A stretch of DNA of 64,000 nt from Vampirovibrionales bacterium (GTDB taxonomy: Bacteria; Cyanobacteriota; Vampirovibrionia; Vampirovibrionales; JAJTHC01). Shown here in pieces: positions 2,962-46,116 of the stretch. The DNA lies in the NCBI GenBank assembly GCA_035285025.1, contig JAYKHY010000036.1:1-64000 (forward strand), read 5' to 3'. The position numbers and the translations under genes were made by a program. The notes under the pieces were generated by a model that was given only the letters and a program-made list of their open reading frames with translations, made no database searches and was not told the origin of the DNA. Position 1 is the stretch's first letter; each line of letters opens with the position of its first letter.

Positions 2962-4236
2962 TCAGGCGTACAAAGCAATAGGCTTGCGAGGCTGCCGTTC
3001 GGATTGGCTTTGCGAGTCTTTTTTGCCGCGTGCGTCTTCCGGGTTGCCTTGCTGACTAAACTGGAAGCTCATAAACGCCCCGCCGTTACCACTTGAGTTG
3101 CTGCCAGTGTGCCCCGAGGCTAAGGCCTGTATTAGGTTTTGCGTCTGGTCTCGCCAGGCAAGCGGACTGTGCATGGCTTGGGCCTGTTTGCTGCCATCCG
3201 AGATATACACCGGCAATGCGGGCATAAAGCCATCCAGGCCGCGGGTTAATTGTTGAGAAAGCTCAATGACGCCGGGTGCTTGGGGCTGTCCGGGGCGCGT
3301 GCGTGTCAATAAATCGCTCTTAATCCCAAAATCTGGCGTGTTGGCGGGCAGGCTAGCCGTAGCGCCCAGGCTTAAAGTCTCTGTGCCGCCCAAGGTGATT
3401 GATGAGGACTCTTGCGCGGTTAAGCTATTATTTAAAGAGCCTCTGGCAGCAGCGTCGCTTATATCAGAGGTGTATAGTGGCGTTTGCGAAGCTTGAGATA
3501 AAAGCGTGCCAGTTTGGCTGACGCCGTTAAAGCCTGCATCTAAGGGTGCGGCAAAGCCTCTGGCGGGTTGGTTAAGCGTGTTTGCGCCAAATACGCCAAA
3601 CGGCTTAAGGCGCGGACTGGTTTTGCCTGTTGTGCCCACCGAAAATTGCGCGCCCGTGGTGATTTCTGCGCGATTAGCAAGCTCGCCTGTGCTGCCCAGA
3701 AGCGTGCCTTGCGCGGGCGCAATCTGGCTGCCTAAAACGGTGCCTGCGCCATCGGTGCGTACTTGCAGGCCCAGTCTGGGAATCAAAAAATTGGGCTGGG
3801 TGGGCGTGTTAATCAGGGTGTCTAGCGCCTCTTCGGTAATGCTGTACTGCCGGGCCTTGTCTTCAAACGCGGCGGGAATCTTTGGGGCTGTTTTTGGTGC
3901 AGATTCGGCAATTAGGCGGCCTTGCGCGTTAATGCCTAAGGCTTGCTTGAATGTATCAAGTGCGTCTGCGGGTTGAGCATTTAAAAGGCTTGCGGCGGGT
4001 TGGCCTGGCACAAAGCCAGACACTTGATACGCCTGAGTGGTTGCCGTGAGGCTTGCGTTTGCTTTTGCCTGGGCGGGGCTCGGGTTAACGCTGTAGGTGC
4101 TGCCGTTAAACTTTAGGGTAAAGCGGCTGTCTGCGTTCAAGGATTGCTGGCGGGCAGTGGGCACCGGATAACGCGTTTGCGCGAGCCTGAACAGCGGCAG
4201 GCCGGGTAGATGCGTTTGAGCCCCAGAGAGAACCAT
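2962..4236 (-). CDS. Hypothetical Ser/Thr/Gly/Gln-rich protein (424 aa), no signal peptide
   Basis: Long ORF with coding-like composition and GGAAG 8 nt upstream of the ATG. No recognisable domain. Divergent from the giant gene. Confidence 0.6.
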   Translation of the reverse strand: MVLSGAQTHLPGLPLFRLAQTRYPVPTARQQSLNADSRFTLKFNGSTYSVNPSPAQAKANASLTATTQAYQVSGFVPGQPAASLLNAQPADALDTFKQALGINAQGRLIAESAPKTAPKIPAAFEDKARQYSITEEALDTLINTPTQPNFLIPRLGLQVRTDGAGTVLGSQIAPAQGTLLGSTGELANRAEITTGAQFSVGTTGKTSPRLKPFGVFGANTLNQPARGFAAPLDAGFNGVSQTGTLLSQASQTPLYTSDISDAAARGSLNNSLTAQESSSITLGGTETLSLGATASLPANTPDFGIKSDLLTRTRPGQPQAPGVIELSQQLTRGLDGFMPALPVYISDGSKQAQAMHSPLAWRDQTQNLIQALASGHTGSNSSGNGGAFMSFQFSQQGNPEDARGKKDSQSQSERQPRKPIALYA

Positions 4237-4577: not shown

Positions 4578-7500
4578 ATGTCTGAAAATATTTCAGATGC
4601 TAAGTTAGGTACGTTAAAGGTCGGTAACCAGACCCAGGTCACGACGGCCAAGGGTCAAAAAGTTTTAGTGAACACCGCTGACCATGAATCCGTGTTTGCC
4701 AAGCAGAACGGTGACGAAACCCTTGTGAGCGTTTTTAGCTCTGATGACAAGGCCAAAATTTGTCATACCAAGCCCAGCCGTGAACTTTCGATTCAAGGCA
4801 AAAAAGGCAATACCAAGGTGTACGCCGCGTTAAAACCGGACGAGCAAAAAAAACTGTATAACACCTTTAAAAAAACGAATCCCAATGATGATAGCAGCCT
4901 AACGCTGGCAACAATGTTGGGTGGAAAAAAGCAGGATGAAGATGCCTCTTTAGACAAGGCACAGAATAATTCAAGCGCGTTGCAGCAAAAAGTTCAGGCG
5001 ATGCTGGATACGTCCAAGCACAGCGTGCCCTTCCAGAATGAAAAAGGCCTGAACAAGGTGCAGCAGCAATTTGAGCAAGGCAAATTATCTTTGCCAGAAG
5101 CTGAGGCAAAAGCGAAGCAACTAGAAACAAAAAAGGTCGGGCTTTTAGGCGGTGCGCTGCGTGGGGCGTCGTTGGGCGTTGTGCGTAACGAAGGCACGCA
5201 AGAGGGCCTTGATAGCATGGCTGGCGACATGGCCGGTAGCATGGTTAGCGGCTTAGGGGTAAATGCATTGGTTATAGCTGGTGCAAGTAAATTATCTAAA
5301 GGGGCTAGCGGTAAAAAGAAGTTGTTACTGGCAGGCACGGTAGGTATTGGCTCTTCGATTGCCTCGGGGGTGCGTACCTGGCAGGATTCGCTTGCCAATG
5401 ATGGCAAAGTTGATGCAGCCGAAGGCTGGAACATTGCACTGCAAGCAGGCTCTGGGTTTATTGGCGGCGCTGCCGGCACTTTGCTTGGGGCGCATGCGGG
5501 CTCTAAATGGGGGCTACTGGGGGCTGCAGGTGCCGACGTGGCTTTGGGCAATGGGCTGGGTTTAGGTAGCCTTGCGGTTAGTAACCAGATAGCCGGACGT
5601 GATAATTTGCTTGAAGGCTGGGAGCAAACCGTTGCAGCCTCGACTGCGGGCTCCTTGGTGGGCACAGGCATTGGGGTCGCGAGTAATCATTTTTCGGGTA
5701 AAGCGCCTGAATCCAACTCTGAAGTTAATAACCGTGATGGAGTGACCGTTCCTGAAGGAAGCTTTGATGATAAACCGCAAGCGAGTCCCTCTTCAGATTC
5801 GACGCCGATTAAAACGGGAGCATGGACTGAACAAGAAACTAAGGAAATTGAAGCCAGTACAAAAAGACTAGAAGAACTTAATGAAAGACTTCGTAACAGG
5901 AATAAGTCCAGCTTAAATGATGCTGACACTGTCTCTGACCCATGGGACGGGGCTGAACCTTCAAAAAGTTCACCGGACGTTAAAACGCCTAAGCCGGAAG
6001 CGAGTGCGCCAAAACTGTTGCCGCCAGCCGGCGAGCTGAGGTTAAACGGGCGTGAGCCGCTTTTAAGTGCGCTCACCAAGGCGGATCCTAAAAGCGCAAC
6101 CAGCGCCCTAAAAATTAACCCTACGTTCGATCTTTCAACGCAAGAGGGTCGCGCCGCCGCTTATCTGTCTGTTTTAAAGGATGTTGATCCGTCTGATTCA
6201 TCTAAGCCGCCAACCAGCGGAAAACTGAGCCAGGCGGGCGATGCACTGGTCGAGATTGCGCGCAATGAGGGTAATACAAACGAGGAAATTCGGACCTTAC
6301 TAACAAAAGCAAAAGACTATTACGAACGCGCGGGCAAGTTGGCGCAAAACGAGCAAACAATCCCTGGCGCGCAATCCGGTGGCAGTGACCTAGAGGCGCC
6401 AGCCAATAATGATATTGCGGCGCAGAACCTGAAAAAAGCGCGCGAGCTTAAGCGTTTGTTAAACGAACCGGTTGAATGGCAGAATGACCCGAAACAAGCG
6501 CAGCTTGAGCCCACCACGATTGATGTGCCCTATGAGGAAATTCCGGGCAACGTGCTCGAGGCCTCAAACGCGCAGGTTGAGCGCATACAAGCCACACCGG
6601 ATGCAGCCTTTGGTGCAGACGAAGCGGATACCGTGATTGCGCAACTAGAGCAAGCGCACGCCAAGCAGCACGCGCTGCAGGAAGGTAAACGCATTGCAGG
6701 CCTGCCCGAGCAAACGCAGCAAAATCTGCTGAAGCGGGCGCAACAGCAATCGCCCGAAAAAAATCTACGCACTGTAGCCGATCTGATTCGGGAGGTTAGC
6801 GAGCCAAAATCTAACGAGGCTGGTCAAGCTTTGCTGCCTGGCGCGCCGTCGCTGATGACCAGCCGCTCGTTGGTGCAAGAGCTTAGCAATGATTTGGCGG
6901 TAAAGCTCCGTCAGGGGCAGCTTTCGCCCCAAAAAGCCATCGAGTTGTCGGGCGCGCTGATTCGCCGCGCCGAGTCTCGGCCGGCCTACCGGATTGCTGA
7001 CAGTGACCTGCTGCCTGTTCGGCAATTGCAGGCTGACGCGATTCAGGCCAAACTAGGCGAGCTTGAGGCGCAAGCTCGTGCTAATGGCCCCAAAACGCGC
7101 TCGTTGCCGCCCGCGCAGTGGGATAAACCCATGCTCAACAGCGCCATAGATCAGTTTATTGCCGCGCAAGAAGCCAAGCTAAAGCTGAGTCCTAGCGACC
7201 CAACGGCAACAAAAGCCATTGCCGATGCCGAGGCGTTCAAGCGCAAGCTTAATCACGCTAACTTAAACGCTGCAAATGATTCGAGCGCGCTTGCGCTCAC
7301 GGAAAGTGATCACGCGACGTTGCAGGCATTGATTGACCATAAGCGCGAGGCACGCAATGTGAACGTCACGGAAAAACTCAACCAAGAGATTGATCATCTG
7401 CGCAGCATTGAGCGCTACGGCAGCCCAGACCCTGCACGGGCTACGGCGCTTGAACCGGGCGTGCTGGACGCGCCCACGTTGCACGGGTATTTGGATGCGT

Positions 7501-9809
7501 TTATTGGTGCTAAAGAAGCACAACGCACCGCCGGCGTAGACGTGCCACAAGCCAATCTGGCGATTCAGCAGGCAAAGGCGTTTCAGGATAAGCTTATTCT
7601 GGCAACTGGCGATGAAGCTGCGATTCAAGAGTTAATTAAACGCTTAAAATCAGATATTGAGCCTTCACGTAATCCGCAAATCAATCGGCAAAGTTCGACG
7701 ACACACAAGCAAAATATATTAGAGCTTATTAACTTAGCAGAAGCAACACAAACAGCCATTATTAAAAATGAGCCGCGCCCTATTGCGGACGTTGATACGC
7801 TGCTGGAACAAAGCGGCTTGGCCAAAGCCGCCGCCCAACAGCCCGTGCCCGAAGCCAACTGGAGCCAGGTGCCCGATGCTGAGCGCCCCAAGGTGTTTCA
7901 GGATGGCTACAACACGCCCGGCCCGAACGTGATTCAGGATTGGTGGAAAAACCGAGGCAATAAACCAGCCGAAGTCGCCACGGCAAAAGATACGCCCCCT
8001 GCTGATGTCTCTGACGCGACGCCAAAAGCGCTGCCTGAAAAACAGGGCTTTAACTGGCGCAATCCGTTTGGCTGGAATAAAAAACAAGCGCCCGCCGTTG
8101 CGCCTGAGAGCACGCCGCCAACGCCAGAGCCCTCAACGGAGTCTGCATCAACTTACGAGGCACCCAACCCTTGGGATGATGCGCCTCCGGCCTCGGATCC
8201 AACAATACCGGTTAACGCAGAAGTCGTGAGCGAAACGGTTCCTTCAACTGCGACCGCGAGTGAGTCTGACCTACCCCAACTGCCGCCTGCAGCGGGGTTA
8301 GATTGGTCGCGGCTGAGAAACCCCTGGCAAACAGTCAAAAACGATATTCAAGCGACGACCGCGACGCTGCGCGGCTTAGGCGACTCAGAATTGGGCTTTA
8401 TTGAGCGTAACAGACAAAACGCGCTAGCGCTGGATGCCGCTGGCGCGCCTAAAGCCGCCGAAGCGGTGGTTACAGAAAGTTCAGCCGAGCCCGCGCCCGC
8501 TAACGTTGAGCCTGCGCCTACGGCCGAGCCTGTGCCACAGGCCGCGCCCAGCGCGTCGCGATTCCCGGAAGGGTATCAGGCGTCGGGGAAATCGGGTAAG
8601 GCAATGCTTGCGTTGGATAAAGCGCTCAAGATTCAGGCCGATGGCATCTCGATGATGCCCAGCTTGCGCCTGACCAAAAATTACGAGGCGGCGTCTAAAG
8701 GCCTAACGAAGCTAGGTGTGAATCTTTCGGCCGATGAGTTAAGCGCGGCGGCGAAGAAAAACCAGCTGAGCGAGGTTATTTTTAACGAGCTTTACGCCAA
8801 AAAATACCCGCAGGCAACTACGGAGATTAACAATAGTGGCGCGCCTTCGCAAAATATAGCGGCTGAGCCTGTCAAGGCCGAGCCGGAGTCTATCTCCGTA
8901 CCTGGCACACCTGTCGCTGATGAGACTCATACAGAGTCTTTTCAGCCAAACACACTCATAGGGGATCTTCTTAATGAAAACAAGCCAGAGCAAGCATTGG
9001 AAGTAGCTCGACAAGCTTTATCGGTAGAAACCGATCCTCAATCTGTTGATCACTTAAATCAGCGCATTCAGGAAGCAAACCTACAAATCGAGGCCCAACA
9101 AAAAGTGCAGGCTGAAGCTGATGCAAAAGAGCAAGAAGCCAAGCAAAAAGCTCAGGCTGACGCGGCTGAAAAAGCGCAAGTGGCTGCAAAACAAGCCCAA
9201 ACAGAAGCTTCCGAAAAAGCGCGCCTAAAAGCCCCACAAAAAACGCAAGAGGCTAAATCGCATCAAGTTTCGCGTGCTCAAGCGGCCGAACAAATTTATC
9301 AGCAACTCTTGGCTGACTTTGATACAAAAATAGCGGAAGCGTCAGAGTCTGGATTTATCAATAAGGATAAAATTGCTCAAGATAAAGCGAGATTTGAAAA
9401 TTCAATGTCTTTGGACCAGTTGAAAGCAGCCGTTAAGTCTCCTGATGCCTTTGCCTCTTTTGTAGTGTCTCAAGATAATGATCGCGTTAACGGCGGGCGT
9501 AATATTTTTGCGGCCTATCAAGCGATTTTGGCTAACTCACAGACCAAAATACCATTACCCGAGCCCGTTGCAGATATTCTTGTGCGCAGGCTTACGCTAA
9601 GTAACCCGACTGCAAACAGAGCTGATCTTAAACAACTTTTGATGCAAGACGCAAATTTAACCCCAGAGACGCTTGAACAGTATTTTAAAAAGTATGTAAA
9701 CTCTATTGAATCAAGTGAGGATGGCATTGCGTGGAAAGCAAGTGAGGGTGGCTCACGCAGCATCTATGAGATGAATAGTTTAGACGAGTCGCCTGCGAAT
9801 GTGCTTTAA
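4578..9809 (+). CDS. Giant hypothetical protein (1743 aa) with a Gly-rich hydrophobic segment and long coiled-coil/low-complexity regions
   Basis: Uninterrupted 5.2 kb ORF with a GAGGGTGGG RBS. Residues ~190-340 form a glycine-zipper-like hydrophobic region (GGxxG / AGxxG). Downstream are Pro/Ala/Glu-rich and KAQAD coiled-coil tracts. Confidence 0.8.
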   Translation: MSENISDAKLGTLKVGNQTQVTTAKGQKVLVNTADHESVFAKQNGDETLVSVFSSDDKAKICHTKPSRELSIQGKKGNTKVYAALKPDEQKKLYNTFKKTNPNDDSSLTLATMLGGKKQDEDASLDKAQNNSSALQQKVQAMLDTSKHSVPFQNEKGLNKVQQQFEQGKLSLPEAEAKAKQLETKKVGLLGGALRGASLGVVRNEGTQEGLDSMAGDMAGSMVSGLGVNALVIAGASKLSKGASGKKKLLLAGTVGIGSSIASGVRTWQDSLANDGKVDAAEGWNIALQAGSGFIGGAAGTLLGAHAGSKWGLLGAAGADVALGNGLGLGSLAVSNQIAGRDNLLEGWEQTVAASTAGSLVGTGIGVASNHFSGKAPESNSEVNNRDGVTVPEGSFDDKPQASPSSDSTPIKTGAWTEQETKEIEASTKRLEELNERLRNRNKSSLNDADTVSDPWDGAEPSKSSPDVKTPKPEASAPKLLPPAGELRLNGREPLLSALTKADPKSATSALKINPTFDLSTQEGRAAAYLSVLKDVDPSDSSKPPTSGKLSQAGDALVEIARNEGNTNEEIRTLLTKAKDYYERAGKLAQNEQTIPGAQSGGSDLEAPANNDIAAQNLKKARELKRLLNEPVEWQNDPKQAQLEPTTIDVPYEEIPGNVLEASNAQVERIQATPDAAFGADEADTVIAQLEQAHAKQHALQEGKRIAGLPEQTQQNLLKRAQQQSPEKNLRTVADLIREVSEPKSNEAGQALLPGAPSLMTSRSLVQELSNDLAVKLRQGQLSPQKAIELSGALIRRAESRPAYRIADSDLLPVRQLQADAIQAKLGELEAQARANGPKTRSLPPAQWDKPMLNSAIDQFIAAQEAKLKLSPSDPTATKAIADAEAFKRKLNHANLNAANDSSALALTESDHATLQALIDHKREARNVNVTEKLNQEIDHLRSIERYGSPDPARATALEPGVLDAPTLHGYLDAFIGAKEAQRTAGVDVPQANLAIQQAKAFQDKLILATGDEAAIQELIKRLKSDIEPSRNPQINRQSSTTHKQNILELINLAEATQTAIIKNEPRPIADVDTLLEQSGLAKAAAQQPVPEANWSQVPDAERPKVFQDGYNTPGPNVIQDWWKNRGNKPAEVATAKDTPPADVSDATPKALPEKQGFNWRNPFGWNKKQAPAVAPESTPPTPEPSTESASTYEAPNPWDDAPPASDPTIPVNAEVVSETVPSTATASESDLPQLPPAAGLDWSRLRNPWQTVKNDIQATTATLRGLGDSELGFIERNRQNALALDAAGAPKAAEAVVTESSAEPAPANVEPAPTAEPVPQAAPSASRFPEGYQASGKSGKAMLALDKALKIQADGISMMPSLRLTKNYEAASKGLTKLGVNLSADELSAAAKKNQLSEVIFNELYAKKYPQATTEINNSGAPSQNIAAEPVKAEPESISVPGTPVADETHTESFQPNTLIGDLLNENKPEQALEVARQALSVETDPQSVDHLNQRIQEANLQIEAQQKVQAEADAKEQEAKQKAQADAAEKAQVAAKQAQTEASEKARLKAPQKTQEAKSHQVSRAQAAEQIYQQLLADFDTKIAEASESGFINKDKIAQDKARFENSMSLDQLKAAVKSPDAFASFVVSQDNDRVNGGRNIFAAYQAILANSQTKIPLPEPVADILVRRLTLSNPTANRADLKQLLMQDANLTPETLEQYFKKYVNSIESSEDGIAWKASEGGSRSIYEMNSLDESPANVL

Positions 9810-14523: not shown

Positions 14524-15261
14524 ATGTCATCCATAACACCAAATATGGTGCAAGTAGGCAATTATTTTGCAAATGGTGCGCTAACGGCAAACATGTCGGG
14601 GCAGTCTTCGCTGCAAACCGGTATGTGGGGCACCTCTGCAAGTGTTGCCGGCCCGTTGGCGTTTGGCGCGCACAACGTGGTTGATAATTTGCCTGGCACA
14701 TCGCCATTTGGGGCCTCTTACACGGCGGCATCCATGACCAACCCTCAAACGTTTGCAGCCGGCGGGCAAAATCCGTTTTCGCCAATTCCGGGTGCTAACT
14801 ACAGACCGTTTAACCTAAATCCGCAAATCGAATCGCAGCTGATGCAAGCCGGTTGGCAGCCGCCAGCACAGGCTGCACCGCAGTTTGGTCAGGCTGCTCA
14901 GCTAGGTCAGGTTCCGCAATATGGTGCTCCTGCGGTTCAAACAGCGCCTACGACAGCGCCAGCAGCTGATGGTAACAATTTGCTGAGTGGTTTTGTGGAC
15001 TGGCTAAACGCACGCTTGCAAACCAATGGCACCGGTCCGGGCGGCATTAGCAGCCGCCAGATTACACCGTTTGGCGACTACACCACGAAAATCGGCCCCG
15101 GTGGTGGTATTGCCAACGTTGGATTGCTGGGTATTCAGATTGCGGGCGACGCAATCGGGATGCGGCGAATGGTTGGCAACCCCGGCATTATTCTGGATTA
15201 TGCAGGTTCGGGCTACACCAATACGAACTTCTTGCAGCAAGGCCAGTTCTTCTCGGTATAA
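14524..15261 (+). CDS. Hypothetical Gly/Gln/Pro-rich, cysteine-free protein (245 aa)
   Basis: ORF with an AT-rich upstream region and a terminator-like T-rich hairpin downstream. Composition is harpin-like (no Cys, Gly-rich). No known domain. Confidence 0.6.
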   Translation: MSSITPNMVQVGNYFANGALTANMSGQSSLQTGMWGTSASVAGPLAFGAHNVVDNLPGTSPFGASYTAASMTNPQTFAAGGQNPFSPIPGANYRPFNLNPQIESQLMQAGWQPPAQAAPQFGQAAQLGQVPQYGAPAVQTAPTTAPAADGNNLLSGFVDWLNARLQTNGTGPGGISSRQITPFGDYTTKIGPGGGIANVGLLGIQIAGDAIGMRRMVGNPGIILDYAGSGYTNTNFLQQGQFFSV

Positions 15262-15368: not shown

Positions 15369-16490
15369 CTAATGCGTAACGCGCTGCTTTAGGGCCTGGC
15401 ACTGTTGGTTGTAAAAATCGTCAAATTGGCCGTTTAACACGGCCTGCCGCGCCTGCGCGGTAAGTCGTACCAGATAACTGACGTTATGAATGCTCAGCAG
15501 CGTTTTGCCTGCGGATTCGTTGAGGCGTAACAAGTGCCGAATGTAAGCGCGGCTGTGGTTACGGCAAGCCTCGCATGGGCAATCTTCCACAAGTGGGGCA
15601 AAATCTTCGGTGTATTGGGCGTTTTTTATGTTCTGGCGACCGGTTGGCGTAAAAAACGCGCCGTGGCGCGCCACGCGGGTGGGCATTACGCAATCAAACA
15701 GGTCAATGCCCGCATGGATGCCCATCAGCAAATCTTCCGGGGTGCCGACGCCCATTAAATAGCGCGGTTTATCGGCAGGCAGCAAGGGGGCTGTAAAGCG
15801 GGTAATGGCCGCAACTTTGTCCTGAGATTCGCCAACGCTGACGCCGCCGATGGCATAGCCGTGTGCCGGGTATTGTGTGACGGCCTGCACGGAGCCTTCT
15901 CGCAAGGATTCAAACGTGCCGCCTTGCACAATCGGGAAAAGTGCTTGATCGTCCGGGCGGGCGTGCGCTTCAAAGCAACGCTCCAGCCATCGGTGGGTGC
16001 GCTCGGTAGCGCTGCGGACTTGCTCAAACGTGGCTTGCCCCGGGGGGCATTCATCAAAAGCCATCATCACATCTGGCCCCAGCGCGTTCTGGATGGCCAT
16101 GGATTCTTTGGGGCCAATAAAATGCGCCGCGCCCGAGACCGGATCGCGGAACGTGACGCCCGCCTCGGTAATTTTACGATGTTTAGAGAGGCTAAACACC
16201 TGAAACCCGCCGGAATCCGTCAGCATGGGGCCGCGCCAGTTCATCCATCTGTGCAGGCCGCCCGCTTTCTGGATGAGCGCAGGGCCTGGCCGCAGGTACA
16301 AATGGTAGGCATTGGCCAGAATCATTTGCGGCTGAGTTTGGGCCAATTGGTTTTGCGTAAGGGTTTTAACGGTGCTATGGGTGCCGACCGGCATAAAGGC
16401 GGGGGTTAGCACTTGTCCGTGGGGCGTCAAAAAGTTGCCCGCCCGGGCTTGGCCTTGGGTCGCTTGAAGCTGAAAAGTAAAATGACTCAC
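15369..16490 (-). CDS. tgt: Queuine tRNA-ribosyltransferase
   Basis: FMPVGT, zinc-site CxCxxC...H region and full-length similarity to Tgt. Confidence 0.92.
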   Translation of the reverse strand: MSHFTFQLQATQGQARAGNFLTPHGQVLTPAFMPVGTHSTVKTLTQNQLAQTQPQMILANAYHLYLRPGPALIQKAGGLHRWMNWRGPMLTDSGGFQVFSLSKHRKITEAGVTFRDPVSGAAHFIGPKESMAIQNALGPDVMMAFDECPPGQATFEQVRSATERTHRWLERCFEAHARPDDQALFPIVQGGTFESLREGSVQAVTQYPAHGYAIGGVSVGESQDKVAAITRFTAPLLPADKPRYLMGVGTPEDLLMGIHAGIDLFDCVMPTRVARHGAFFTPTGRQNIKNAQYTEDFAPLVEDCPCEACRNHSRAYIRHLLRLNESAGKTLLSIHNVSYLVRLTAQARQAVLNGQFDDFYNQQCQALKQRVTH

Positions 16491-16648
16491 AGGAGTTTGG
16501 GCTTTTAGGCAAAATACGTATTAAACGGATAAATGGCGGGCTTGTGGCAGAAAGATTGATTGAATCGCGATGAGGCACTCGCGTGAAAGCCTGCTGGGTT
16601 AAAACGTGCAGAGGACGACAATCGCTAAAAAAAGCGTACACTGAATCT

Positions 16649-18028
16649 ATGACGTCTGAAATACTGGTACCCGCGCCGAGCCGATTTTGTATTGATCCTG
16701 CGCGCCTGGATGCGTTAAACACCCAGCTGGATACCTTGCTGCAGCAGAATGATCTGATGCGATACCAGGGCCGCGTGAGCAAGCTGATGGGCCTGACCGT
16801 TGAGGCGCAGCTACCCAAGCTTAAAATCGGCGATTTATGTTTTATTGAAAGCAGTAACGGCGCGCCTAAACCCGCCGAGGTGGTGGCGTTTAAGGGCGAT
16901 ACGGCCCAAATGCTGCTGTTGTATGATGGCACCGGCATTTACCAAGGCAGCTGGGTGACCACGACCAACGAGCCGATTCGGGTGCCGGTGGGCGATTTTT
17001 TGCTGGGTCGGTTGATTTCGCCATTGGGTGAGCCGCTGGATGGCATGCCGCTGGATACCAGCAAAGCCAAGTTTGTAAGCGCCGATGCCGCGCCGCCAGA
17101 CCCGATGAACCGGCCGATTATTAAAAATCGGTTTTCTACGGGCGTGCGCGCCGTGGATTCGTTGTTGACGATGGGAGCCGGGCAGCGCATGGGGCTGTTT
17201 GCGGGCTCAGGGGTGGGTAAATCAACCATGTTGGGTATGATTGCCCGAAACTCGGATGCGGATGTTAACGTGGTGGCCCTGATTGGCGAACGCGGCCGCG
17301 AGGTGAAAGAGTTTTTAGAAAACAGCCTGGGTGAAGAGGGCGTGCGGCGTTCGGTGATGGTTTGCGCCACCGGCGATCAGCCGCCGTTGCTACGAATGAA
17401 GTGCCTACAAACTGCCACGGCGGTGGCCGAGTATTTTAGAGATCAAGGTAAAAAAGTATTTTTAATGACGGATACCGTGACCCGGGCTGCGATGAGCGGG
17501 CGCGAGGTGGGGCTGGCTATTGGCGAGCCGCCCACGATGAAGGGCTACCCACCGTCGATTTTCTCGTGGCTGCAAAAGGTGCTGGAGCGCTCGGGGATTA
17601 CCGAGCAGGGCTCGATTACCGCGCTGTATACCGTGCTGGTTGAAGGCGATGATATCAACGATCCGGTGTGCGATACCGTGCGCGGGATTATTGACGGGCA
17701 CATTATGTTGTCTCGGAAGGTGGCGGCCAAGAATCATTTTCCGGCGATTGATGTGTTGGGTAGCGTGAGCCGTTTGTTTACCGAGATTTGTGAGCCCGAG
17801 CACATGCGTGCGGCAGGTAAAATGCGCGAATTGATGGCGATTTATCAAGATGCCAAAGATCTGATTGACGTGGGCGCATACGAGCGCGGAGCCAACCCTA
17901 AAATTGATTTGGCGATGGATTTAATGCCCGAGATTAACGGGTTTTTAAAACAATCGGTCAAAGATTTGGTGACCATGGACAGCACAATTGCCCGCCTGCA
18001 AGAGATGATGGCCCCTGTGCAGCTGTAA
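16649..18028 (+). CDS. FliI/SctN-family ATPase (flagellar/type III secretion export ATPase), orphan
   Basis: RMGLFAGSGVGKSTMLGMIARN Walker A and full-length FliI/YscN similarity. No other flagellar or T3SS genes are adjacent. Start at MTSEIL. Confidence 0.85.
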   Translation: MTSEILVPAPSRFCIDPARLDALNTQLDTLLQQNDLMRYQGRVSKLMGLTVEAQLPKLKIGDLCFIESSNGAPKPAEVVAFKGDTAQMLLLYDGTGIYQGSWVTTTNEPIRVPVGDFLLGRLISPLGEPLDGMPLDTSKAKFVSADAAPPDPMNRPIIKNRFSTGVRAVDSLLTMGAGQRMGLFAGSGVGKSTMLGMIARNSDADVNVVALIGERGREVKEFLENSLGEEGVRRSVMVCATGDQPPLLRMKCLQTATAVAEYFRDQGKKVFLMTDTVTRAAMSGREVGLAIGEPPTMKGYPPSIFSWLQKVLERSGITEQGSITALYTVLVEGDDINDPVCDTVRGIIDGHIMLSRKVAAKNHFPAIDVLGSVSRLFTEICEPEHMRAAGKMRELMAIYQDAKDLIDVGAYERGANPKIDLAMDLMPEINGFLKQSVKDLVTMDSTIARLQEMMAPVQL

Positions 18029-18042: not shown

Positions 18043-18375
18043 TTACGCAAACGTGTTCAAGGGCTTTTTAATAGATTGCTGTAAATGCGATTGATGTTGT
18101 TTGAGTTGCTCAAACGCGTCGGGGAGTTGCTCAGGCGTTGTAACGGAAATACTGTAAGAATGGCTGTCAAAGGGCGCTTTCGCGGGATAAACCCCACGCA
18201 ATACGTATTGCGGTGTATTGTTTGTGCTGTATTTCGCTGGCTCAAGCGTAACTTTGGTGGGGCCGTTAGGCGCTTGATGTTTTTTAGCCAGCGCTGCTAA
18301 CGCTAGTTTTAAGTCATCGGGAACGGTTGATTTAACAAAAAATTGCGTACCAAAACAAGCTGATTTAAGGTGCAT
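18043..18375 (-). CDS. Hypothetical protein (110 aa)
   Basis: ORF convergent with the ATPase gene. No recognisable domain. Confidence 0.4.
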   Translation of the reverse strand: MHLKSACFGTQFFVKSTVPDDLKLALAALAKKHQAPNGPTKVTLEPAKYSTNNTPQYVLRGVYPAKAPFDSHSYSISVTTPEQLPDAFEQLKQHQSHLQQSIKKPLNTFA

Positions 18376-18421: not shown

Positions 18422-19768
18422 TTACGCAAGCGCGGTTTCGGCAATAAACCCGGTATCGATGTTTTTGCCCTCGGTAAAAATTGCGTTTTGCATAACCTGT
18501 TGATGAAACGGAATCGTGGTTTTAACGCCCGTAATGGCGTACTCGTGCAGGGCGCGCTGCATGCGGGCAATGGCCGCGTTACGGGTTTCGCCCCAGCAAA
18601 TCAGCTTGCCAATCATCGAATCATAAAACGGCGGAATTTTATAACCACTGTACACATGGCTATCCACCCGAATCCCAAAGCCGCCCGGCGGGCAATAGCC
18701 ATCGATGGTGCCTGGGTTGGGCATAAAGTTTTTGGTCGGGTCTTCGGCGTTAATGCGGCATTCAATGGCGTGGCCGCGCAGGGTAATGTCGTCCTGGGTT
18801 AGCCAAAGGCGTTCGCCAGCCGCAACGCGAATTTGCGCCTGAATTAAATCGATGCCCGTTACCATCTCGGTGACGGGATGCTCCACCTGAATGCGGGTGT
18901 TCATTTCCATAAAATAGGCGTTTAGGTCGTTATCAAACAAAAATTCTACGGTGCCTACGCCTTCATAACCCAGTTTGCGAATGGCGCGCAGCAGTTGATT
19001 CCCCACGCGCTCGCGAATTTCTGGGGTGACCACGGGCGAGGGCGATTCTTCGAGCAGTTTTTGGTGGCGTCGCTGAATCGAGCAGTCGCGTTCGCCCAGA
19101 TGCACGACGTTGCCATATTTATCGGCCAAAATCTGAAACTCAATGTGGCGCGGCTTGGCAATGAGTTTTTCGGCGTACATGCCGGGATTACCAAAGGCGG
19201 CTTTGGCCTCGTTTTGGGCCATGGCTAGCATTTCGGCAACTTTGGATTCATCCTCGACGATGCGCATGCCTTTGCCGCCGCCGCCTGCGGTGGCTTTAAG
19301 TAGAATCGGGAACCCGACCGCTTTTCCCCAGGCCGCAATCAAATCCGGATCGCTCACGATGCCATCGGTGCCGGGCACCACGGGCAGGCCGGCTTCTTGC
19401 GCGGCTTTTTTGGCCGAGGCTTTATCGCCCATGGTGTTAATCATTTTGGCGCTTGGGCCAATAAAGGCGACTTTATGCTCGGCGCAAATATCTGCAAACG
19501 TGGCGTTTTCGGCCAAAAACCCGTAGCCCGGATGAATGGCGTCGGCCCCCGAGACGCAGGCAACGCTCATGATGTTATGAATATTCAGGTAACTTTGCGC
19601 AGCGGGCGCGGGGCCCACGCAGTAGGCTTCGTCGGCCAGTTGCACGTGCAGGCTGTCTGCGTCTGGTTCTGAGTATATGGCGACTGAAGGCACGCCAAGC
19701 TCTCGGCAGGCGCGGATGATGCGTAAAGCGATTTCGCCCCGGTTTGCAATCAGGATTTTGTTAAACAT
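18422..19768 (-). CDS. accC: Acetyl-CoA carboxylase biotin carboxylase subunit
   Basis: MFNKILIANRGEIALRIIRA N-terminus and ATP-grasp motifs. No accB upstream, which is unusual. Confidence 0.93.
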   Translation of the reverse strand: MFNKILIANRGEIALRIIRACRELGVPSVAIYSEPDADSLHVQLADEAYCVGPAPAAQSYLNIHNIMSVACVSGADAIHPGYGFLAENATFADICAEHKVAFIGPSAKMINTMGDKASAKKAAQEAGLPVVPGTDGIVSDPDLIAAWGKAVGFPILLKATAGGGGKGMRIVEDESKVAEMLAMAQNEAKAAFGNPGMYAEKLIAKPRHIEFQILADKYGNVVHLGERDCSIQRRHQKLLEESPSPVVTPEIRERVGNQLLRAIRKLGYEGVGTVEFLFDNDLNAYFMEMNTRIQVEHPVTEMVTGIDLIQAQIRVAAGERLWLTQDDITLRGHAIECRINAEDPTKNFMPNPGTIDGYCPPGGFGIRVDSHVYSGYKIPPFYDSMIGKLICWGETRNAAIARMQRALHEYAITGVKTTIPFHQQVMQNAIFTEGKNIDTGFIAETALA

Positions 19769-20140
19769 AAGCCAGCCGCCTTTTTGTATTTTTAGGAGTC
19801 TTAAATGCGCGTGTTTGCCATGCAAGTGCCATGGCAAACCGTTGTTGCCATTATACGCAAAGCCTTTTTAAGAAGCGATGACGTTCAGTGTAAGAGTCGT
19901 TAAGACAAGACGAGAGCATCCGCTTGGCGGTTTTAATGCCTAAACGAGAGCGCTGTTTTAGCCTGATCTGAGGAGATTTGCTTGTTACCAGAAAACCATC
20001 ACGAAGTTAATTTAGGAGGAAGGCAAAAAATCAGTAAGTTAAACGGCACTGGTTATGCAGAAAAATGATGGGATAACCGAAGCACATCAATTTTTAAAGT
20101 TTCTCCTTCTTATTATTCTTAACTATCTATTGTTGTTAGC

Positions 20141-25439: not shown

Positions 25440-27353
25440 ATGATTGCATCTTCCTCTTTTGACAAAACGCCGTTTGATAAAGCGCGCGGCATAGGCGCTA
25501 CGTCGGGGGTCAATTCTCGGGCAAGCCACGCGTTGTTTAAGCTGTTTGCCTACGAAACCCTGGAGCGTTGGGCGAGCGTGGGCGCGCTGATTGAAGATGT
25601 TACCGGCGCCTCCGGCAGCTCATCTGAGCGTTTGCCCGCGATGGTGTGCGAGGCGTTACGTGAGCGGCACCGGCGCGTGTTTGGCTTTATCGCATCGCAT
25701 CAATCCGAGCTGGAATGCGCGTTTAGCGCGGGGAAGCTGACCGAAGGCAAATTGGTTGAGCAGGCCAATAAACTCCCCGAGGCCGTTCGCGTTTTACGGC
25801 AGTCGCAGCATGCGCTGGCTAAAATCGAGCGCCTGCTTGCGCAAACCGGCGGTTTGCAGCAACGCGCAGAGCTGGGTTTTCTGATGAGCGAAACGCGCCA
25901 GTGGGAAATCGATCAGCCGGCGCGCAATCGTCGTGCAAAAGCAAATCGCGTGCGCTCCAGCGCAGATAAGCCGGACCCCAAGTTTTGGACGGTTTATGAA
26001 GAGATTCAGCAAATTGACGCTGCAGACTGGGATCACCCGGCGTGGGCCGCAAGCGTTGCCTGGCCGGTAACGCCCTCGCGGTTGCCGATTCGGTGGGCGC
26101 AAAATCCGGTGGGCTGGCTGCTTGCGCTGCGAAGTCAAATTACGCAGCTTAGCGCAAGGTTGTTGGCAGAATCTGCCGAAGGCCATAAGGCAATGCAGAC
26201 GTTGCGGATGCGTTTACCAAGCGTGGCGCAGCAAGCTTACGGGGCCGATGTTGTCCTTGCGGCGCTCATCGGGATTCGGTGTTATGGCCCTGCCTGGTAT
26301 TTTACGCGCGTGATGGAGGCAGTAAACCAGTTTGATACGGGCTTCCTGCAAATTCTTGAGCCCTTGATGTTCCATGCGCTCAACTTTTTTAATTTTTCCG
26401 ATAAAAATCTGGTGCTGATGCACGACAGTGTGCTGCGCGGCTTGCCGTTGTGGCAGCAACTCGCCGAGGTTAAGCCGGCTGCATGCGCACGCGCTGAATC
26501 CGGGCTGTATGCCGAGGCTGCGCATACGGGCCCCGAGGCGGACGCGCTGGGTGGCAGTTTTGCGTTAAACGAAGCGTTGACGGATGCGTTGGATAACGTA
26601 CTGAGTTGGGCAGAGGATCAACTGCCAGATGCGCACGCGTGCCAGCTGACCCAAGGCGTGTTTACCGATAAGCACTTGAAGCGATGCGCACCGATGGAAG
26701 ATATTCTGGGCGATGACATGCTCATCGCAAGCCACCGGCCGTATTCGTTGGCGCATGTGAACGTGCTGTTGCAAGAAAAATACGGCGATAGTCTGGATGT
26801 GGATGCCAGCGGCGTGCCCGTAAGCGGACAAGCGATGCACGGTTTGCATGGCGCGGGCGGCTTCTCGTCGGTGTTGTCTTCAGTCCATTCGCCGGGTAGC
26901 ACGTCCGGGCATTCGGGGCCTTCTGGGCATCTAATGTCGGTGTATCACTTAATTGGCATGTTGGCCGAAGAGCCTATTAGCTGCCGCGAAATGATTACTG
27001 CTGGCTGGTTGCACAAATTAAATCGCGCAAGCGTAATGGTGTATGATACCTTGCTGACGAGCGCCTTTGAAACGGATAATCTCTGTAGTGCCCAATGCCC
27101 GCTCCCTGCGGCGGCGCTGCGGTTTATGAACCACGTGAATTCTCGTAGTCGCCTGCTGCTCAAATCAATGGAAACCGCGCAGGTGCACCAGATGCTGATG
27201 GCGTTACCGACGCAATCGAGTGCGCAATGGCCTAGCAAGCCCTGGTACGATTCTGAAAAAGCGCTTGCCGCGCCCTCAGTGCCTGCGCCGTCGGAATCCG
27301 TTTCGGCGAACTACGCGATTGCGGCTGCCGCGATGGCCAGCCTGGAAATTTAA
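25440..27353 (+). CDS. Hypothetical protein (637 aa)
   Basis: Long ORF with no recognisable domain. Confidence 0.6.
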   Translation: MIASSSFDKTPFDKARGIGATSGVNSRASHALFKLFAYETLERWASVGALIEDVTGASGSSSERLPAMVCEALRERHRRVFGFIASHQSELECAFSAGKLTEGKLVEQANKLPEAVRVLRQSQHALAKIERLLAQTGGLQQRAELGFLMSETRQWEIDQPARNRRAKANRVRSSADKPDPKFWTVYEEIQQIDAADWDHPAWAASVAWPVTPSRLPIRWAQNPVGWLLALRSQITQLSARLLAESAEGHKAMQTLRMRLPSVAQQAYGADVVLAALIGIRCYGPAWYFTRVMEAVNQFDTGFLQILEPLMFHALNFFNFSDKNLVLMHDSVLRGLPLWQQLAEVKPAACARAESGLYAEAAHTGPEADALGGSFALNEALTDALDNVLSWAEDQLPDAHACQLTQGVFTDKHLKRCAPMEDILGDDMLIASHRPYSLAHVNVLLQEKYGDSLDVDASGVPVSGQAMHGLHGAGGFSSVLSSVHSPGSTSGHSGPSGHLMSVYHLIGMLAEEPISCREMITAGWLHKLNRASVMVYDTLLTSAFETDNLCSAQCPLPAAALRFMNHVNSRSRLLLKSMETAQVHQMLMALPTQSSAQWPSKPWYDSEKALAAPSVPAPSESVSANYAIAAAAMASLEI

Positions 27354-31368: not shown

Positions 31369-32919
31369 TCAGGCGGCGGCGTCGAGCCTCATCAGCTCGG
31401 CTTTGGCGTTATTGCTGATTTGTTGCGCGCCGATACCAACGGCTTTAGCAAATAGCCCAAACAAGCCCGCCATCGCGCTGGGAATCAACACAAACGGCGA
31501 GGCGTCGTGAATCACGTCCGACGCGTCGTGGGCAAAGTGGCCCAATGTGTCGTGCCAGTTGTGTTCGTCAGTGTCGGGCGTTGTTTCGTTCGGCAAGTTT
31601 GTATTCACCGTGCTTTCGGGGGTCAGTTCTGCATCGCCCAGTTTAACCTTGGGTGAGCCAAACCAGCCTCTTTTTTCGACGGTAAGTGTAAAATTACCAG
31701 GCGTATTATCTGGAATTTGATAAGTTTGCGTATTTGCCGCCAACTGTGTGTGAGCATCAGGCGAAGCATGGTCGCTTATATTATTTCTGAGCAGCGTTGC
31801 AATTGGGCCTTCGCCATCCAAGTTGCGATCCATTTGAGAAATGCTGCCCAAAGGCGCCTCTTGATTTACGTCATGAGACTCAATATTTTTGAAGGCTTTT
31901 AAGGCTTCGTTGTTTTGTTGAGTCACGGAGGGCACGGATTTTTGCGCGGCATTACTGGCGTCAAATTGCGCTTTAAGATTGTGCCATACGTCGTTCGCTT
32001 TTTCTGCGTAGGGCTTTAGGGTATCGTCTAGCATGCCTTGAGATTGTGTTTTGAATGTTTCAGCGTGTTCTTGAGCTAGATCTTTAACTGAATGGGGTGT
32101 TTTACCCATTTCAACAACTTTATCTACGTCAAAATCAGGTTTGGCGTCTGGATTGGCTTGAATCACGGTTTGCCCTTGCGGGTTGATGGTTTTAGTAACT
32201 TGTTCTGCAGGGGCTTCAGTTGTCACCTCAGGCGTATCTGCTTTGGCTTCAGGCGTATCGGTTTTAGATTCGGTGTTGCTGCTCGTTGGTGCTTCTTTGG
32301 CTTGCGTTGCGGCAGGTTTGGTCTCTGCGTTGGTGGCTTCAGGCGCAGGTGTTGCTTCGGGCGCTGCAGGTTTGACCTCACGAGTCATACTTTCCAAGTT
32401 TTCAGGGGGTGTGTCTAATTTTTTCCATTCAGTTTCATGCTCTCCTTTAACGAAAAACGCTTTCCCGTCGTAGGTTTTGTAGTCAAGATGATTATGTTTA
32501 TCCGAATACTCGATTGTTCCCTGAATTTTGTCCCCATTATGCTGAATGACTGTTTTGGGAGTGTCGACCTTTGATTGTTGGGCATCTCCCGCTTTGGTCT
32601 CCTCAACTTTTGGTGGCTGAACATCATCTACTTTAGAAGGCGCCTTGGCCCCTTCTTTCACAAACGTTTTCTGGAGCCAGTCGGCCACGTTCATAAAGTC
32701 AAACCGGTTATCGCCCTCGTGCGGCAATAATTGCGCGGCACCCCCAGCCAAGCCGCCGCCAAGCACTACGGGCGCGTGCGCATCTGCAATCTGGTATGAG
32801 CTGTTGGCTAACTCTTGCGTGACTTTGGCGCGGTTTTGTAAATTTTGGGCAGTGGTGCCAAAATGCGGGTTCTGTTGGCTGGGTCGAATGGTCGTCATTG
32901 TAAGGTTATGGCTCCCCAA
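31369..32919 (-). CDS. Hypothetical low-complexity protein (516 aa) with Pro/Thr/Glu/Ala/Lys-rich central region
   Basis: Long ORF. C-terminal hydrophobic stretch FVLIPSAMAGLFGLFAKAVGIG. No known domain. Confidence 0.6.
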   Translation of the reverse strand: MGSHNLTMTTIRPSQQNPHFGTTAQNLQNRAKVTQELANSSYQIADAHAPVVLGGGLAGGAAQLLPHEGDNRFDFMNVADWLQKTFVKEGAKAPSKVDDVQPPKVEETKAGDAQQSKVDTPKTVIQHNGDKIQGTIEYSDKHNHLDYKTYDGKAFFVKGEHETEWKKLDTPPENLESMTREVKPAAPEATPAPEATNAETKPAATQAKEAPTSSNTESKTDTPEAKADTPEVTTEAPAEQVTKTINPQGQTVIQANPDAKPDFDVDKVVEMGKTPHSVKDLAQEHAETFKTQSQGMLDDTLKPYAEKANDVWHNLKAQFDASNAAQKSVPSVTQQNNEALKAFKNIESHDVNQEAPLGSISQMDRNLDGEGPIATLLRNNISDHASPDAHTQLAANTQTYQIPDNTPGNFTLTVEKRGWFGSPKVKLGDAELTPESTVNTNLPNETTPDTDEHNWHDTLGHFAHDASDVIHDASPFVLIPSAMAGLFGLFAKAVGIGAQQISNNAKAELMRLDAAA

Positions 32920-33424
32920 GATGTATGTTAAATGCGGTCATGCGTAACGTCAGGATAAATGCAGGCCTGCGCTCTGGGCTTAAATGCTACCGAAAAAATG
33001 GGTTAACACTTGAGCGGTGGTGCGGGCTGAGTACTTTTAATAAGCCAACTGAAGCTGGATTTGTGCGACAGAATAGACCAAATGTAACGGTTTTTTAATG
33101 CAGCGTTTAAAAGCCTCCAGAATCTGGGCACGCGTTCGACACTCATAACACAGGGAAACATTAAACGTTGACTCGCGCCGAGTCGTTCAAATAAATGCGT
33201 GGTGGCGGCGCAGGGTTAATTTTGCGAGTGCGTTTATAGTGAATAACTCGCGCGGGTTTGGGTCTCGCGGCTGGGTGATCGTCAGTTTTTGTATAAATTT
33301 ATTGCGCGGGTTTTTTCGGGTCAGGCTTTTTAGGCAAAAAGCGACAGGAGTAGATGTGGTTTTACCCATTAATTCATCGCGTGCGTATACCCCTAATGTT
33401 CAGCTTTCGGCTCAATTTCGGTTT

Positions 33425-37477: not shown

Positions 37478-37693
37478 CTAAACGGATGGGTTTGCGGGAA
37501 TCGTTTTAGGCAATACCGCAATGGCTTGACGATAGGCAATAATGCGCTCGCAGACTTGCTGGGGGGACTCCAGAACCACCTGTTTTTCTCCGTTGACCAG
37601 GGTTATGGTGGTATCCGGCTTGGATTCAATCATGATGACCAGATCCGGATTCAGCCAGAACTCGGTGTTGTTAATGCGGGTGAGAAGAATCAT
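37478..37693 (-). CDS. flbD: Flagellar FlbD-family protein, orphan
   Basis: MILLTRINNTEFWLNPDLVIMIESKPDTTITLVNGEKQVV matches the conserved FlbD core (LTRLNG...F.LN...I...E..PDTTITL..G.K..V.E). Confidence 0.7.
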   Translation of the reverse strand: MILLTRINNTEFWLNPDLVIMIESKPDTTITLVNGEKQVVLESPQQVCERIIAYRQAIAVLPKTIPANPSV

Positions 37694-44699: not shown

Positions 44700-44768
44700 G
44701 CAGACCGCAGCATGGGCAAGTTCCTGACGCTGGAAGATCTCAAAGAGATTCTGTCGCCAGGGTTTTAA
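44700..44768. repeat. 69-bp direct repeat, copy 2 (displaced ancestral helicase 3' end)
   Basis: See copy 1. Confidence 0.85.
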
Positions 44769-46097: not shown

Positions 46098-46116
46098 GCA
46101 AATGGATTAAGCAACA

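What the first reader, a model, noticed from the sequence alone, without database searches (positions are those of the whole stretch)
16649..18028. Orphan FliI/SctN-type export ATPase between tgt and accC
This is a full-length type III/flagellar export ATPase with intact Walker motifs, monocistronic and flanked by housekeeping genes. No FliH/FliJ or other apparatus genes are nearby. Either flagellar or T3SS genes are unusually dispersed in this organism, or this is a relic or repurposed ATPase.
Basis: partly seen in the sequence, partly recalled or inferred. Interest (0 to 1): 0.5.

Follow-up and report, generated by a model that had tools for sequence, protein, structure and literature searches.

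The report
Solitary flagellar export ATPase gene fliI
This is an intact fliI gene, the ATPase of the flagellar protein-export machine, in a non-photosynthetic cyanobacterial relative (Vampirovibrionales); it sits alone because this lineage has broken up an ancestral flagellar operon, which is already known in outline and therefore ordinary.

Summary
Window 16649..18028 (+) encodes a 459-aa FliI/YscN-family ATPase with intact catalytic motifs. It is monocistronic by strand logic, between tgt and accC.

It is 100% identical to an NCBI protein from a Vampirovibrionales MAG. It is not a relic: dN/dS is about 0.05-0.1, and Walker A and the catalytic Glu are kept in all 69 melainabacterial orthologs examined. 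It is not an F/V-type subunit or an injectisome SctN.

In nine different Vampirovibrionales genome contexts the ortholog is always solitary. In more than 30 other melainabacterial loci it lies at the end of a conserved operon: flgF/G-like, flgB, flgC, SLT, fliE, fliF, a FliG-position protein, fliH, flhA, fliI, sometimes followed by fliJ. The gene is therefore a detached member of a flagellar-type export/basal-body set.

A second solitary flagellar gene, flbD, lies 19.4 kb away in the same window.

Published tables already list dispersed and partial flagellar gene sets in this class, and two FliI-family genes in Vampirovibrio chlorellavorus. The open point is whether this conserved core set builds the swimming flagellum or a separate reduced apparatus.

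Interest is low to moderate.

The parts
16649..18028 (+). fliI: 459-aa FliI/YscN-family export ATPase. It has an N-terminal beta-barrel region, a RecA-like ATPase domain with Walker A GSGVGKST and catalytic GERGREV, a clade-specific Walker B LMTDTVTR, and a T3SS_ATPase_C domain.
   Evidence: 100% identical to NCBI 'FliI/YscN family ATPase [Vampirovibrionales bacterium]'.
16491..16648 (.). 158-bp divergent intergenic region between tgt and fliI, presumed to hold fliI's own promoter. An A-run followed by TACACT (16637..16642) ends 6 nt before the ATG. It resembles the AAAAAA..TACAAT seen just upstream of several orthologs (inference: short or absent leader).
   Evidence: Sequence read. The consensus scan found no sigma-70 site above chance here, and no sigma-28-like motif was found. 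This part is weak and inferred only.
37478..37693 (-). flbD: 71-aa FlbD-family flagellar protein. It is a second solitary flagellar gene in the window, 19.4 kb from fliI.
   Evidence: Found by tblastn with ~75-aa proteins from Firmicutes flagellar operons. Pfam PF06289 E 3.8e-25, full-length match. NCBI name 'flagellar FlbD family protein [Vampirovibrionales bacterium]' on the same 68,590-bp contig.

Best explanation
The gene is a functional fliI, the cytoplasmic ATPase of a flagellar-type type III export apparatus in a Vampirovibrionales bacterium (class Vampirovibrionia/Melainabacteria). It is solitary because this order has fragmented an ancestral melainabacterial operon. That operon reads flgF/G-like, flgB, flgC, SLT lytic transglycosylase, fliE, fliF, a FliG-position protein, fliH, flhA, fliI, and in some genomes fliJ, a fliK-like gene and a short FlgE/F/G-like gene. 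Shown here: family membership, intact catalytic residues, strong purifying selection, orthology to the operon-embedded genes, and solitary position throughout the order. Inferred from established knowledge of FliI in Salmonella: the protein forms a FliI6 ring with FliJ as central stalk, is tethered by FliH dimers beneath the FlhA ring of the export gate, and uses ATP hydrolysis to load substrates and activate the proton-driven gate for export of rod and hook (and, where present, filament) subunits. Its partners are inferred to be encoded elsewhere in the genome and brought together at the protein level. The gene is inferred to be transcribed from its own promoter.
For: Family.

Organism and conservation: 100% match to a Vampirovibrionales MAG protein, and more than 100 homolog clusters at 76-88% identity.

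Purifying selection: dN/dS is 0.05-0.1 against orthologs with dS saturated, and 0.013 between two V. chlorellavorus strains. GSGVGKS and GERGREV are present in 69 of 69 orthologs.

Solitary in nine distinct Vampirovibrionales contexts with different neighbours.

Orthologs at 70-75% identity lie directly after fliH-flhA in more than 30 loci. Pfam confirms a rod protein, SLT, FliE, FliF, FliH and FlhA in L009, and FliJ, a FliK-like protein and a FlgE/F/G-like protein after fliI in L155.

NJ tree, 100 bootstraps: all melainabacterial FliI are monophyletic (99%) and Vampirovibrionales are monophyletic (100%). The clade falls among FliI from flagellar operons and apart from EscN and PDB chain 9e58, labelled only 'Type 3 secretion system ATPase'.

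A second solitary flagellar gene, flbD, is in the window.

Literature: V. chlorellavorus swims with a polar flagellum and its flagellar genes are scattered, including an isolated fliH-flhA pair and a flgF-G-B-C-fliE-fliF block that mirror the operon pieces (PMC4451040).
Against: No partner gene (fliH, fliJ, flhA, fliPQR, flhB, fliF) is in the 64-kb window, and the rest of this MAG could not be read.

No NCBIfam equivalog model (FliI clades 1-3, SctN) reaches its cutoff, so the HMMs alone cannot separate FliI from SctN.

I could not fetch a Vampirovibrionales fliH-flhA locus directly.

Non-flagellated Gastranaerophilales also keep this fliI with a partial gene set (PMC4040986; bioRxiv 10.64898/2026.04.24.720558). 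V. chlorellavorus is listed with a second fliI inside a canonical fliF-G-H-I block. The apparatus this ATPase serves may therefore not be the swimming flagellum.

The N-terminal ~25 residues, the FliH-binding segment in Salmonella, are poorly conserved among orthologs.
Confidence: 0.82

Rival explanations
1. The ATPase belongs to a reduced, flagellum-derived apparatus (MS ring, rod, export gate, ATPase, degenerate FliG-like protein) that is distinct from the swimming flagellum. This apparatus is kept even in non-motile Melainabacteria, for example for protein secretion or an envelope function. Where a real flagellum exists, a second and more canonical gene set builds it.
For: Non-flagellated Gastranaerophilales and a Caenarcaniphilales genome keep FlgB/C/F/G, FliE, FlhA, FlhB, FliI, FliJ, FliP and FliR. 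They have no hook, filament, switch, stator or L/P-ring genes (PMC4040986 supplementary table).

A 2026 preprint reports that about 75% of Gastranaerophilales genomes keep only such genes and cites a secretion role.

The conserved operon recovered here contains exactly this core and no motor or filament genes. Its FliG-position protein has only sub-threshold MgtE_N, FliG_M and FliG_N matches.

V. chlorellavorus tables list two copies of flhA, flhB, fliPQR, fliE, fliF, flgB/C, fliH and fliJ, and two FliI-family genes. One FliI gene lies in a canonical flgB-C-fliE-F-G-H-I block; the other is listed separately. The V. chlorellavorus ortholog of the window gene is the one without a fliH neighbour.
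Against: The two-set picture rests on published annotation tables and was not verified here on sequence. The window also carries flbD, a motor-associated gene, which argues that this organism has a working flagellar motor. Some operons include fliK-like and hook-like genes. Nobody has shown secretion or a filament-less basal body in this class.
Confidence: 0.3
2. The gene is a relic: a leftover of a lost flagellum, decaying or functionless.
For: It is solitary and flanked by housekeeping genes. Partial flagellar gene sets exist in relatives.
Against: The reading frame is full-length and intact. dN/dS is 0.05-0.1 with saturated dS. All catalytic motifs are invariant in 69 orthologs. Identity is 76-88% across an entire order. 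The V. chlorellavorus copy is predicted to be highly expressed from codon usage (PMC4451040 Table S2).
Confidence: 0.03
3. The ATPase has been repurposed and now works without any type III export gate, for example as a stand-alone unfoldase or in another complex.
For: It is always transcriptionally independent in Vampirovibrionales, and its neighbours change between genomes. There is a clade-specific Walker B variant, LMTDT[VI]TR. The N-terminal FliH-binding segment is variable.
Against: The Walker B variant and overall sequence are shared with orthologs that still sit next to fliH, flhA and fliJ, so no sequence change accompanies the detachment. Published tables list export-gate genes in the genomes that keep this fliI.
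Confidence: 0.06
4. It is SctN, the ATPase of a non-flagellar injectisome used by a predatory bacterium.
For: The best PDB hit is EscN (395 bits, against 369 for Salmonella FliI). The SctN equivalog model scores 549.5 bits, close to FliI_clade2 at 581.2. Vampirovibrio is a predator.
Against: The genes linked to the orthologs are flagellar: FliE, FliF with the flagellar M-ring C-terminal domain, FlgB/C/F/G rod proteins and FliJ. No secretin, needle or translocon genes are present. The nearest relatives outside the class, at 48-55% identity, lie mostly in flagellar operons. The NJ tree separates the clade from EscN and 9e58.
Confidence: 0.02

Closest known systems
FliI of Salmonella enterica (flagellar export ATPase; PDB 2DPY, 5B0O)
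   Same: Same domain architecture and catalytic residues, with 369 bits over nearly the full length. Orthologs are linked to fliH, fliJ, flhA and fliF.
   Different: The gene is solitary in this order. In the ancestral melainabacterial operon flhA lies between fliH and fliI. Walker B reads LMTDTVTR instead of IMDSLTR. The N-terminal FliH-binding segment is not conserved. No NCBIfam FliI equivalog cutoff is reached.
FliI of Firmicutes-type (TIGR03497 FliI_clade2) flagellar operons
   Same: Best-scoring equivalog model (581.2 bits). The nearest relatives outside the class are 48-55% identical and lie in flgB-C-fliE-F-G-H-I-J operons. The window's flbD is also of this type.
   Different: The score is below the cutoff of 629.8. 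The melainabacterial clade is a separate, 99%-supported branch.
Partial flagellar gene sets of non-motile Melainabacteria (Soo et al. 2014; 2026 Gastranaerophilales preprint), and by analogy the filament-less flagellar basal bodies of Buchnera (own knowledge)
   Same: The same orthologous fliI is retained together with export-gate and rod genes in genomes that lack hook, filament and motor genes.
   Different: The window organism belongs to the order that contains the flagellated V. chlorellavorus, and it carries flbD. Whether it has the full set is unknown.
Orphan flagellar paralogs of Chlamydia (FliI, FlhA, FliF; PMC2830194, title and abstract only)
   Same: Flagellar-type export genes are scattered in the genome without a full flagellar operon.
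   Different: Chlamydiae lack flagella and have an injectisome. Here the relatives are flagellated, and no injectisome genes were seen.
EscN/SctN injectisome ATPases (PDB 6NJO)
   Same: Same fold family and catalytic motifs, and the top PDB score.
   Different: The gene associations of the orthologs are flagellar, and the tree separates the two groups.

Membership tests
FliI/YscN family ATPase (TIGR01026) | Whole-protein HMM score above the curated cutoff | tested here: met
   556.9 bits against a cutoff of 379.5.
FliI/YscN family ATPase (TIGR01026) | RecA-like ATP-synt_ab domain plus T3SS_ATPase_C domain, with Walker A, catalytic Glu, Walker B Asp and the PAID...SR segment | tested here: met
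   Pfam hits. Residue-level alignment to EscN and FliI. Motifs conserved in 69 orthologs.
Flagellar FliI (as opposed to injectisome SctN) | Equivalog-level HMM (FliI clade 1, 2 or 3) above cutoff | tested here: not met
   FliI_clade2 581.2 < 629.8; clade1 540.9 < 619.1; clade3 505.9 < 587.45. SctN is also below its cutoff, 549.5 < 604.75. The HMMs do not decide between the two.
Flagellar FliI (as opposed to injectisome SctN) | Gene neighbourhood with fliH, fliJ and other flagellar basal-body or export genes | tested here: inconclusive
   Not met in the window or in any of nine Vampirovibrionales contexts. Met for orthologs at 70-75% identity in more than 30 loci, with the order fliE-fliF-x-fliH-flhA-fliI(-fliJ).
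Flagellar FliI (as opposed to injectisome SctN) | Phylogenetic placement with FliI of flagellar operons | tested here: met
   NJ tree with 100 bootstraps. The melainabacterial clade (99%) groups with operon-encoded FliI, away from EscN and 9e58. This is a distance method with limited SctN sampling and no F1 outgroup.
Flagellar FliI (as opposed to injectisome SctN) | Hexamer formation, ATPase activity, binding to FliH2 and FliJ, stimulation of export | not testable with these tools
   Requires biochemistry or genetics.
Injectisome SctN | Association with secretin SctC, needle SctF, SctD or translocon genes | tested here: not met
   None found in the window or next to any ortholog. The linked genes are FliE, FliF (with YscJ_FliF_C), the Flg rod proteins and FliJ.
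F1/V1 ATP synthase catalytic subunit | Best similarity to AtpD/AtpA or V-type A/B subunits | tested here: not met
   atpD model 185 bits against a cutoff of 462.85. PDB F1-beta at most 184 bits, against 369-395 for FliI and EscN.

The most novel reading that the evidence does not exclude
The solitary FliI is the motor of a conserved, reduced flagellum-derived machine that is separate from the swimming flagellum. The machine comprises the MS ring, rod, lytic transglycosylase, export gate, ATPase complex and a degenerate FliG-like protein. All Melainabacteria that have it keep it, including non-motile gut species. In V. chlorellavorus it coexists with a second, canonical flagellar gene set that has its own fliI. 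Its role would be secretion or another envelope function in non-photosynthetic cyanobacterial relatives.
Probability: 0.3. Interest if true: 0.65.

Novelty: already known. Interest (0 to 1): 0.22.

Why it matters
As it stands, the finding is a correctly spotted but ordinary gene. The identical protein is already named FliI/YscN family ATPase in NCBI, and papers on Melainabacteria already list fliI among scattered or partial flagellar gene sets.

Three results from this check are useful. First, the gene is tied by orthology to a conserved melainabacterial operon in which flhA sits between fliH and fliI, and a very divergent protein occupies the FliG position. Second, detachment of fliI marks the whole order Vampirovibrionales and recurs in gut Gastranaerophilales. 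Third, selection on the detached gene is as strong as on the linked one.

If the core set proves to be a machine separate from the flagellum, it would be an example of a flagellum-derived apparatus retained for another purpose in a major bacterial class.

Tried and rejected
- Upstream GTG start at 16583 (481 aa): rejected, because orthologs begin near the ATG at 16649.
- Sigma-28 (FliA) promoter upstream of fliI in the window and six orthologs: no convincing match. The consensus scan for sigma-70 promoters and terminators found nothing above chance near the gene.
- Exact look-up of the window protein's contig: not on record.
It was still useful for synteny.
- Attempts to reach a Vampirovibrionales fliH-flhA locus. 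The metagenome scan with the FliG-position protein returned only low-GC melainabacterial loci. L142, with overall GC 0.51, proved mixed in composition, and its flagellar part is low-GC. The FlhA search returned only hits of at least 72% identity from other orders, and the one candidate checked (L174) has a FliI 73% identical to the window protein and sits in a cluster.
- Search with the 71-aa FlbD: only four hits because of the word index. The nearest informative one lies in a flagellar operon with the same gene order as the Firmicutes operons; its organism was not identified.
- Direct retrieval of the second, canonical V. chlorellavorus fliI: not possible with the remaining caps. It rests on published tables.
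- hhalign of the FliG-position protein against Firmicutes FliG: only a weak local match, probability 7.9%.
- The first bootstrapped tree timed out and was redone with a faster distance routine.
- F/V-type ATPase and injectisome readings were considered and rejected.

Full report
**1. The observation**

The window has an ORF at 16583..18028 (+).

- Pfam finds ATP-synt_ab (E 7.7e-83) and T3SS_ATPase_C (E 1.2e-26).
- NCBIfam places the protein in the FliI/YscN subfamily TIGR01026, 556.9 bits against a cutoff of 379.5.
- No equivalog model reaches its cutoff: FliI_clade2 scores 581.2 (cutoff 629.8) and SctN 549.5 (cutoff 604.75).
- Against solved structures it scores 395 bits with EscN, 369 with Salmonella FliI and at most 184 with F1-beta.
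- Walker A GSGVGKST, catalytic GERGREV, the Walker B Asp and the PAID...SR segment are aligned and intact.
- tgt (15369..16490) is divergent. A 110-aa ORF (18043..18375) and accC (18422..19837) are convergent. The gene is therefore monocistronic by strand logic.

**2. The organism and the rest of the window**

The protein is 100% identical to an NCBI protein named FliI/YscN family ATPase from a Vampirovibrionales MAG, on a 68,590-bp contig. More than 100 homolog clusters share 76-88% identity, including V. chlorellavorus at 82%.

Pfam scans of essentially all ORFs of the window found housekeeping genes and no T3SS or flagellar domain, with one exception. tblastn with proteins from flagellar operons hit 37478..37693 (-). 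That ORF is a 71-aa full-length FlbD-family protein (PF06289, E 3.8e-25), which NCBI also names so on the same contig.

The window therefore holds two solitary flagellar genes 19.4 kb apart. No homolog of fliH, fliJ, flhA, fliF or the rod genes is in the window.

**3. The gene is not a relic**

- Against seven Vampirovibrionales orthologs, dN/dS is 0.05-0.1 with synonymous sites saturated. Between two V. chlorellavorus strains it is 0.013.
- All 69 melainabacterial orthologs examined keep GSGVGKS and GERGREV.
- Nearly all share a clade-specific Walker B, LMTDT[VI]TR.

**4. The solitary state is a trait of the order**

The ortholog was examined in nine different Vampirovibrionales contexts: the window, two V. 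chlorellavorus assemblies, and loci L006, L007, L088, L089, L090 and L091. In every one it is alone among unrelated housekeeping genes. The neighbours differ between genomes: coaX, prfA, dnaE/dxr, ruvB, an Rce1-like gene.

**5. Where the gene came from**

A genome scan returned Gastranaerophilales orthologs at 66-74% identity, followed by FliI of Firmicutes, Margulisbacteria and others at 48-55%.

- Most of the non-melainabacterial loci are classic flgB-C-fliE-F-G-H-I-J operons.
- In a subset of the Gastranaerophilales loci, the ortholog directly follows FliH and FlhA.
- Pfam on L009 confirmed the order: rod protein, SLT transglycosylase, FliE, FliF, a 307-aa protein without a family, FliH, FlhA, FliI.
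- A metagenome scan with the 307-aa protein gave 80 more loci.

Annotating these loci showed a conserved operon. It runs: two FlgF/G-like rod proteins, FlgB, FlgC, SLT, FliE, FliF, the FliG-position protein, FliH, FlhA, FliI. In L155 the operon continues with FliJ, a FliK-like protein and a short FlgE/F/G-like protein. L174 shows the same cluster.

Sorting the loci by identity to the window protein gives three groups.

| Identity to window FliI | Lineage | Position of fliI |
|---|---|---|
| 76% or more | Vampirovibrionales | Always solitary |
| 70-75% | Other Melainabacteria | Directly after flhA (more than 30 loci) |
| 66-70% | Gastranaerophilales subclades | Solitary again |

A bootstrapped NJ tree supports this picture. 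All melainabacterial FliI are monophyletic (99%) and Vampirovibrionales are monophyletic (100%). The clade lies among operon-encoded FliI and away from EscN and PDB chain 9e58, labelled only 'Type 3 secretion system ATPase'.

Comparison with the fliF-fliG-fliH-fliI order of other phyla makes the linked state ancestral. This step is an inference.

**6. What the literature already says**

- V. chlorellavorus swims with a single polar flagellum and is reported to have all flagellar genes (PMC4451040).
- Its Table S3 lists scattered genes. These include an isolated fliH-flhA pair and a flgF-flgG-flgB-flgC-fliE-fliF block, which mirror pieces of the operon found here.
- The same table lists a canonical flgB-C-fliE-F-G-H-I block with its own fliI. 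Table S2 lists a further 'T3SS ATPase FliI/YscN' under another gene number, predicted to be highly expressed.
- The V. chlorellavorus ortholog of the window gene has no fliH neighbour. It therefore corresponds to the separately listed copy. This is an inference from published tables, not verified on sequence.
- Soo et al. 2014 show that non-flagellated Gastranaerophilales keep FlgB/C/F/G, FliE, FlhA, FlhB, FliI, FliJ, FliP and FliR, but no hook, filament, switch, stator or ring genes (PMC4040986).
- A 2026 preprint reports a full flagellar set in about 25% of Gastranaerophilales genomes. It mentions a postulated secretion role for the retained genes in the remainder.

**7. Mechanism**

Shown: this is a conserved, catalytically intact FliI-type ATPase, orthologous to genes embedded between flhA and fliJ in a basal-body/export operon.

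Inferred from the Salmonella paradigm: the protein forms a FliI6-FliJ ring held by FliH dimers under the FlhA ring, and uses ATP to load substrates and activate the proton-driven gate. Partners are supplied in trans.

Open: whether the machine served is the swimming flagellum or a reduced core apparatus that coexists with it. I put about 0.3 on the second reading.

**8. Verdict**

The gene and the phenomenon are already in the databases and papers, so novelty is low and interest modest. The operon reconstruction and the possible second machine are the only parts worth following.

Noticed in passing
window 37478..37693 (-): A solitary 71-aa FlbD-family flagellar gene, 19.4 kb from fliI. It is followed on the same strand by a DUF212/PAP2-like gene (36948..37394). 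Its nearest detectable relatives lie in Firmicutes-type flagellar operons, after flgE.
   Followed up: yes
L009:6175-7098 and homologs (L008, L015, L036, L042, L055; 80 loci L094-L173): A 300-335-aa protein occupies the FliG position between fliF and fliH in the melainabacterial operon. It has no significant Pfam family. There are only sub-threshold MgtE_N (5 of 6 members), FliG_M and FliG_N hits, and a weak hhalign match to the FliG 'IALIL..L.PEKAA.IL' helix. It may be a very divergent or degenerate FliG.
   Followed up: partly
L009:7092-11293, L155:10992-15776, L174:9305-13534 and more than 30 other loci: In the melainabacterial operon, flhA is inserted between fliH and fliI. This gene order differs from the usual fliH-fliI-fliJ. 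An SLT lytic transglycosylase sits between flgC and fliE.
   Followed up: partly
window 17429..17455 (residues 261-269 of FliI) and all orthologs: The Walker B region is clade-specific: LMTDT[VI]TR, instead of the MDSxTR seen in Salmonella FliI and EscN. It is shared by solitary and operon-linked orthologs (67 of 69).
   Followed up: partly
L001:5891-5967, L004:9719-9795, L007:9801-9877: A tRNA-Arg(ACG) gene lies directly upstream of fliI and divergent from it in V. chlorellavorus and one other Vampirovibrionales genome. In L001 a phage-type integrase and a Fic gene sit beside the tRNA, suggesting an integration hot spot next to fliI.
   Followed up: partly
window 18043..18375 (-) and 14524..15261 (+): Two ORFs flank the tgt-fliI pair: 110 aa, and 245 aa rich in Gln/Gly/Pro. 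Neither has a Pfam or NCBIfam family, and neither has a homolog in any fetched locus. Whether they are real genes is unknown.
   Followed up: partly
window 4578..9809 (+): A 1743-aa ORF with no Pfam domain. Several other long ORFs also lack any family: 2962..4236, 25440..27353, 31369..32919, 33239..34579.
   Followed up: no
window 43314..46700: The region from 44 to 46 kb has GC 0.41, against about 0.52 elsewhere. It lies next to a Fic/DOC gene (43314..44489) and just upstream of a tRNA-Ser (46960..47048). It may be an acquired island.
   Followed up: no
L078 (Acidobacteriota MAG): Its ATPase groups with the PDB T3SS ATPase 9e58 rather than with FliI in the NJ tree. Its locus shows only FlhB/FlhA-like neighbours, so it is probably a non-flagellar T3SS.
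   Followed up: no
P0123, P0126, P0127, P0138, P0141, P0150, P0193 (representative search): FliI-family proteins of 610-666 aa. Most carry an extension of about 200 residues before the ATPase region; P0126 carries it after. They could be fusions with a partner such as FliH.
   Followed up: no
L142: A metagenome contig with a high-GC left part and a low-GC melainabacterial x307-fliH right part. It is probably chimeric, or a junction of foreign DNA.
   Followed up: partly
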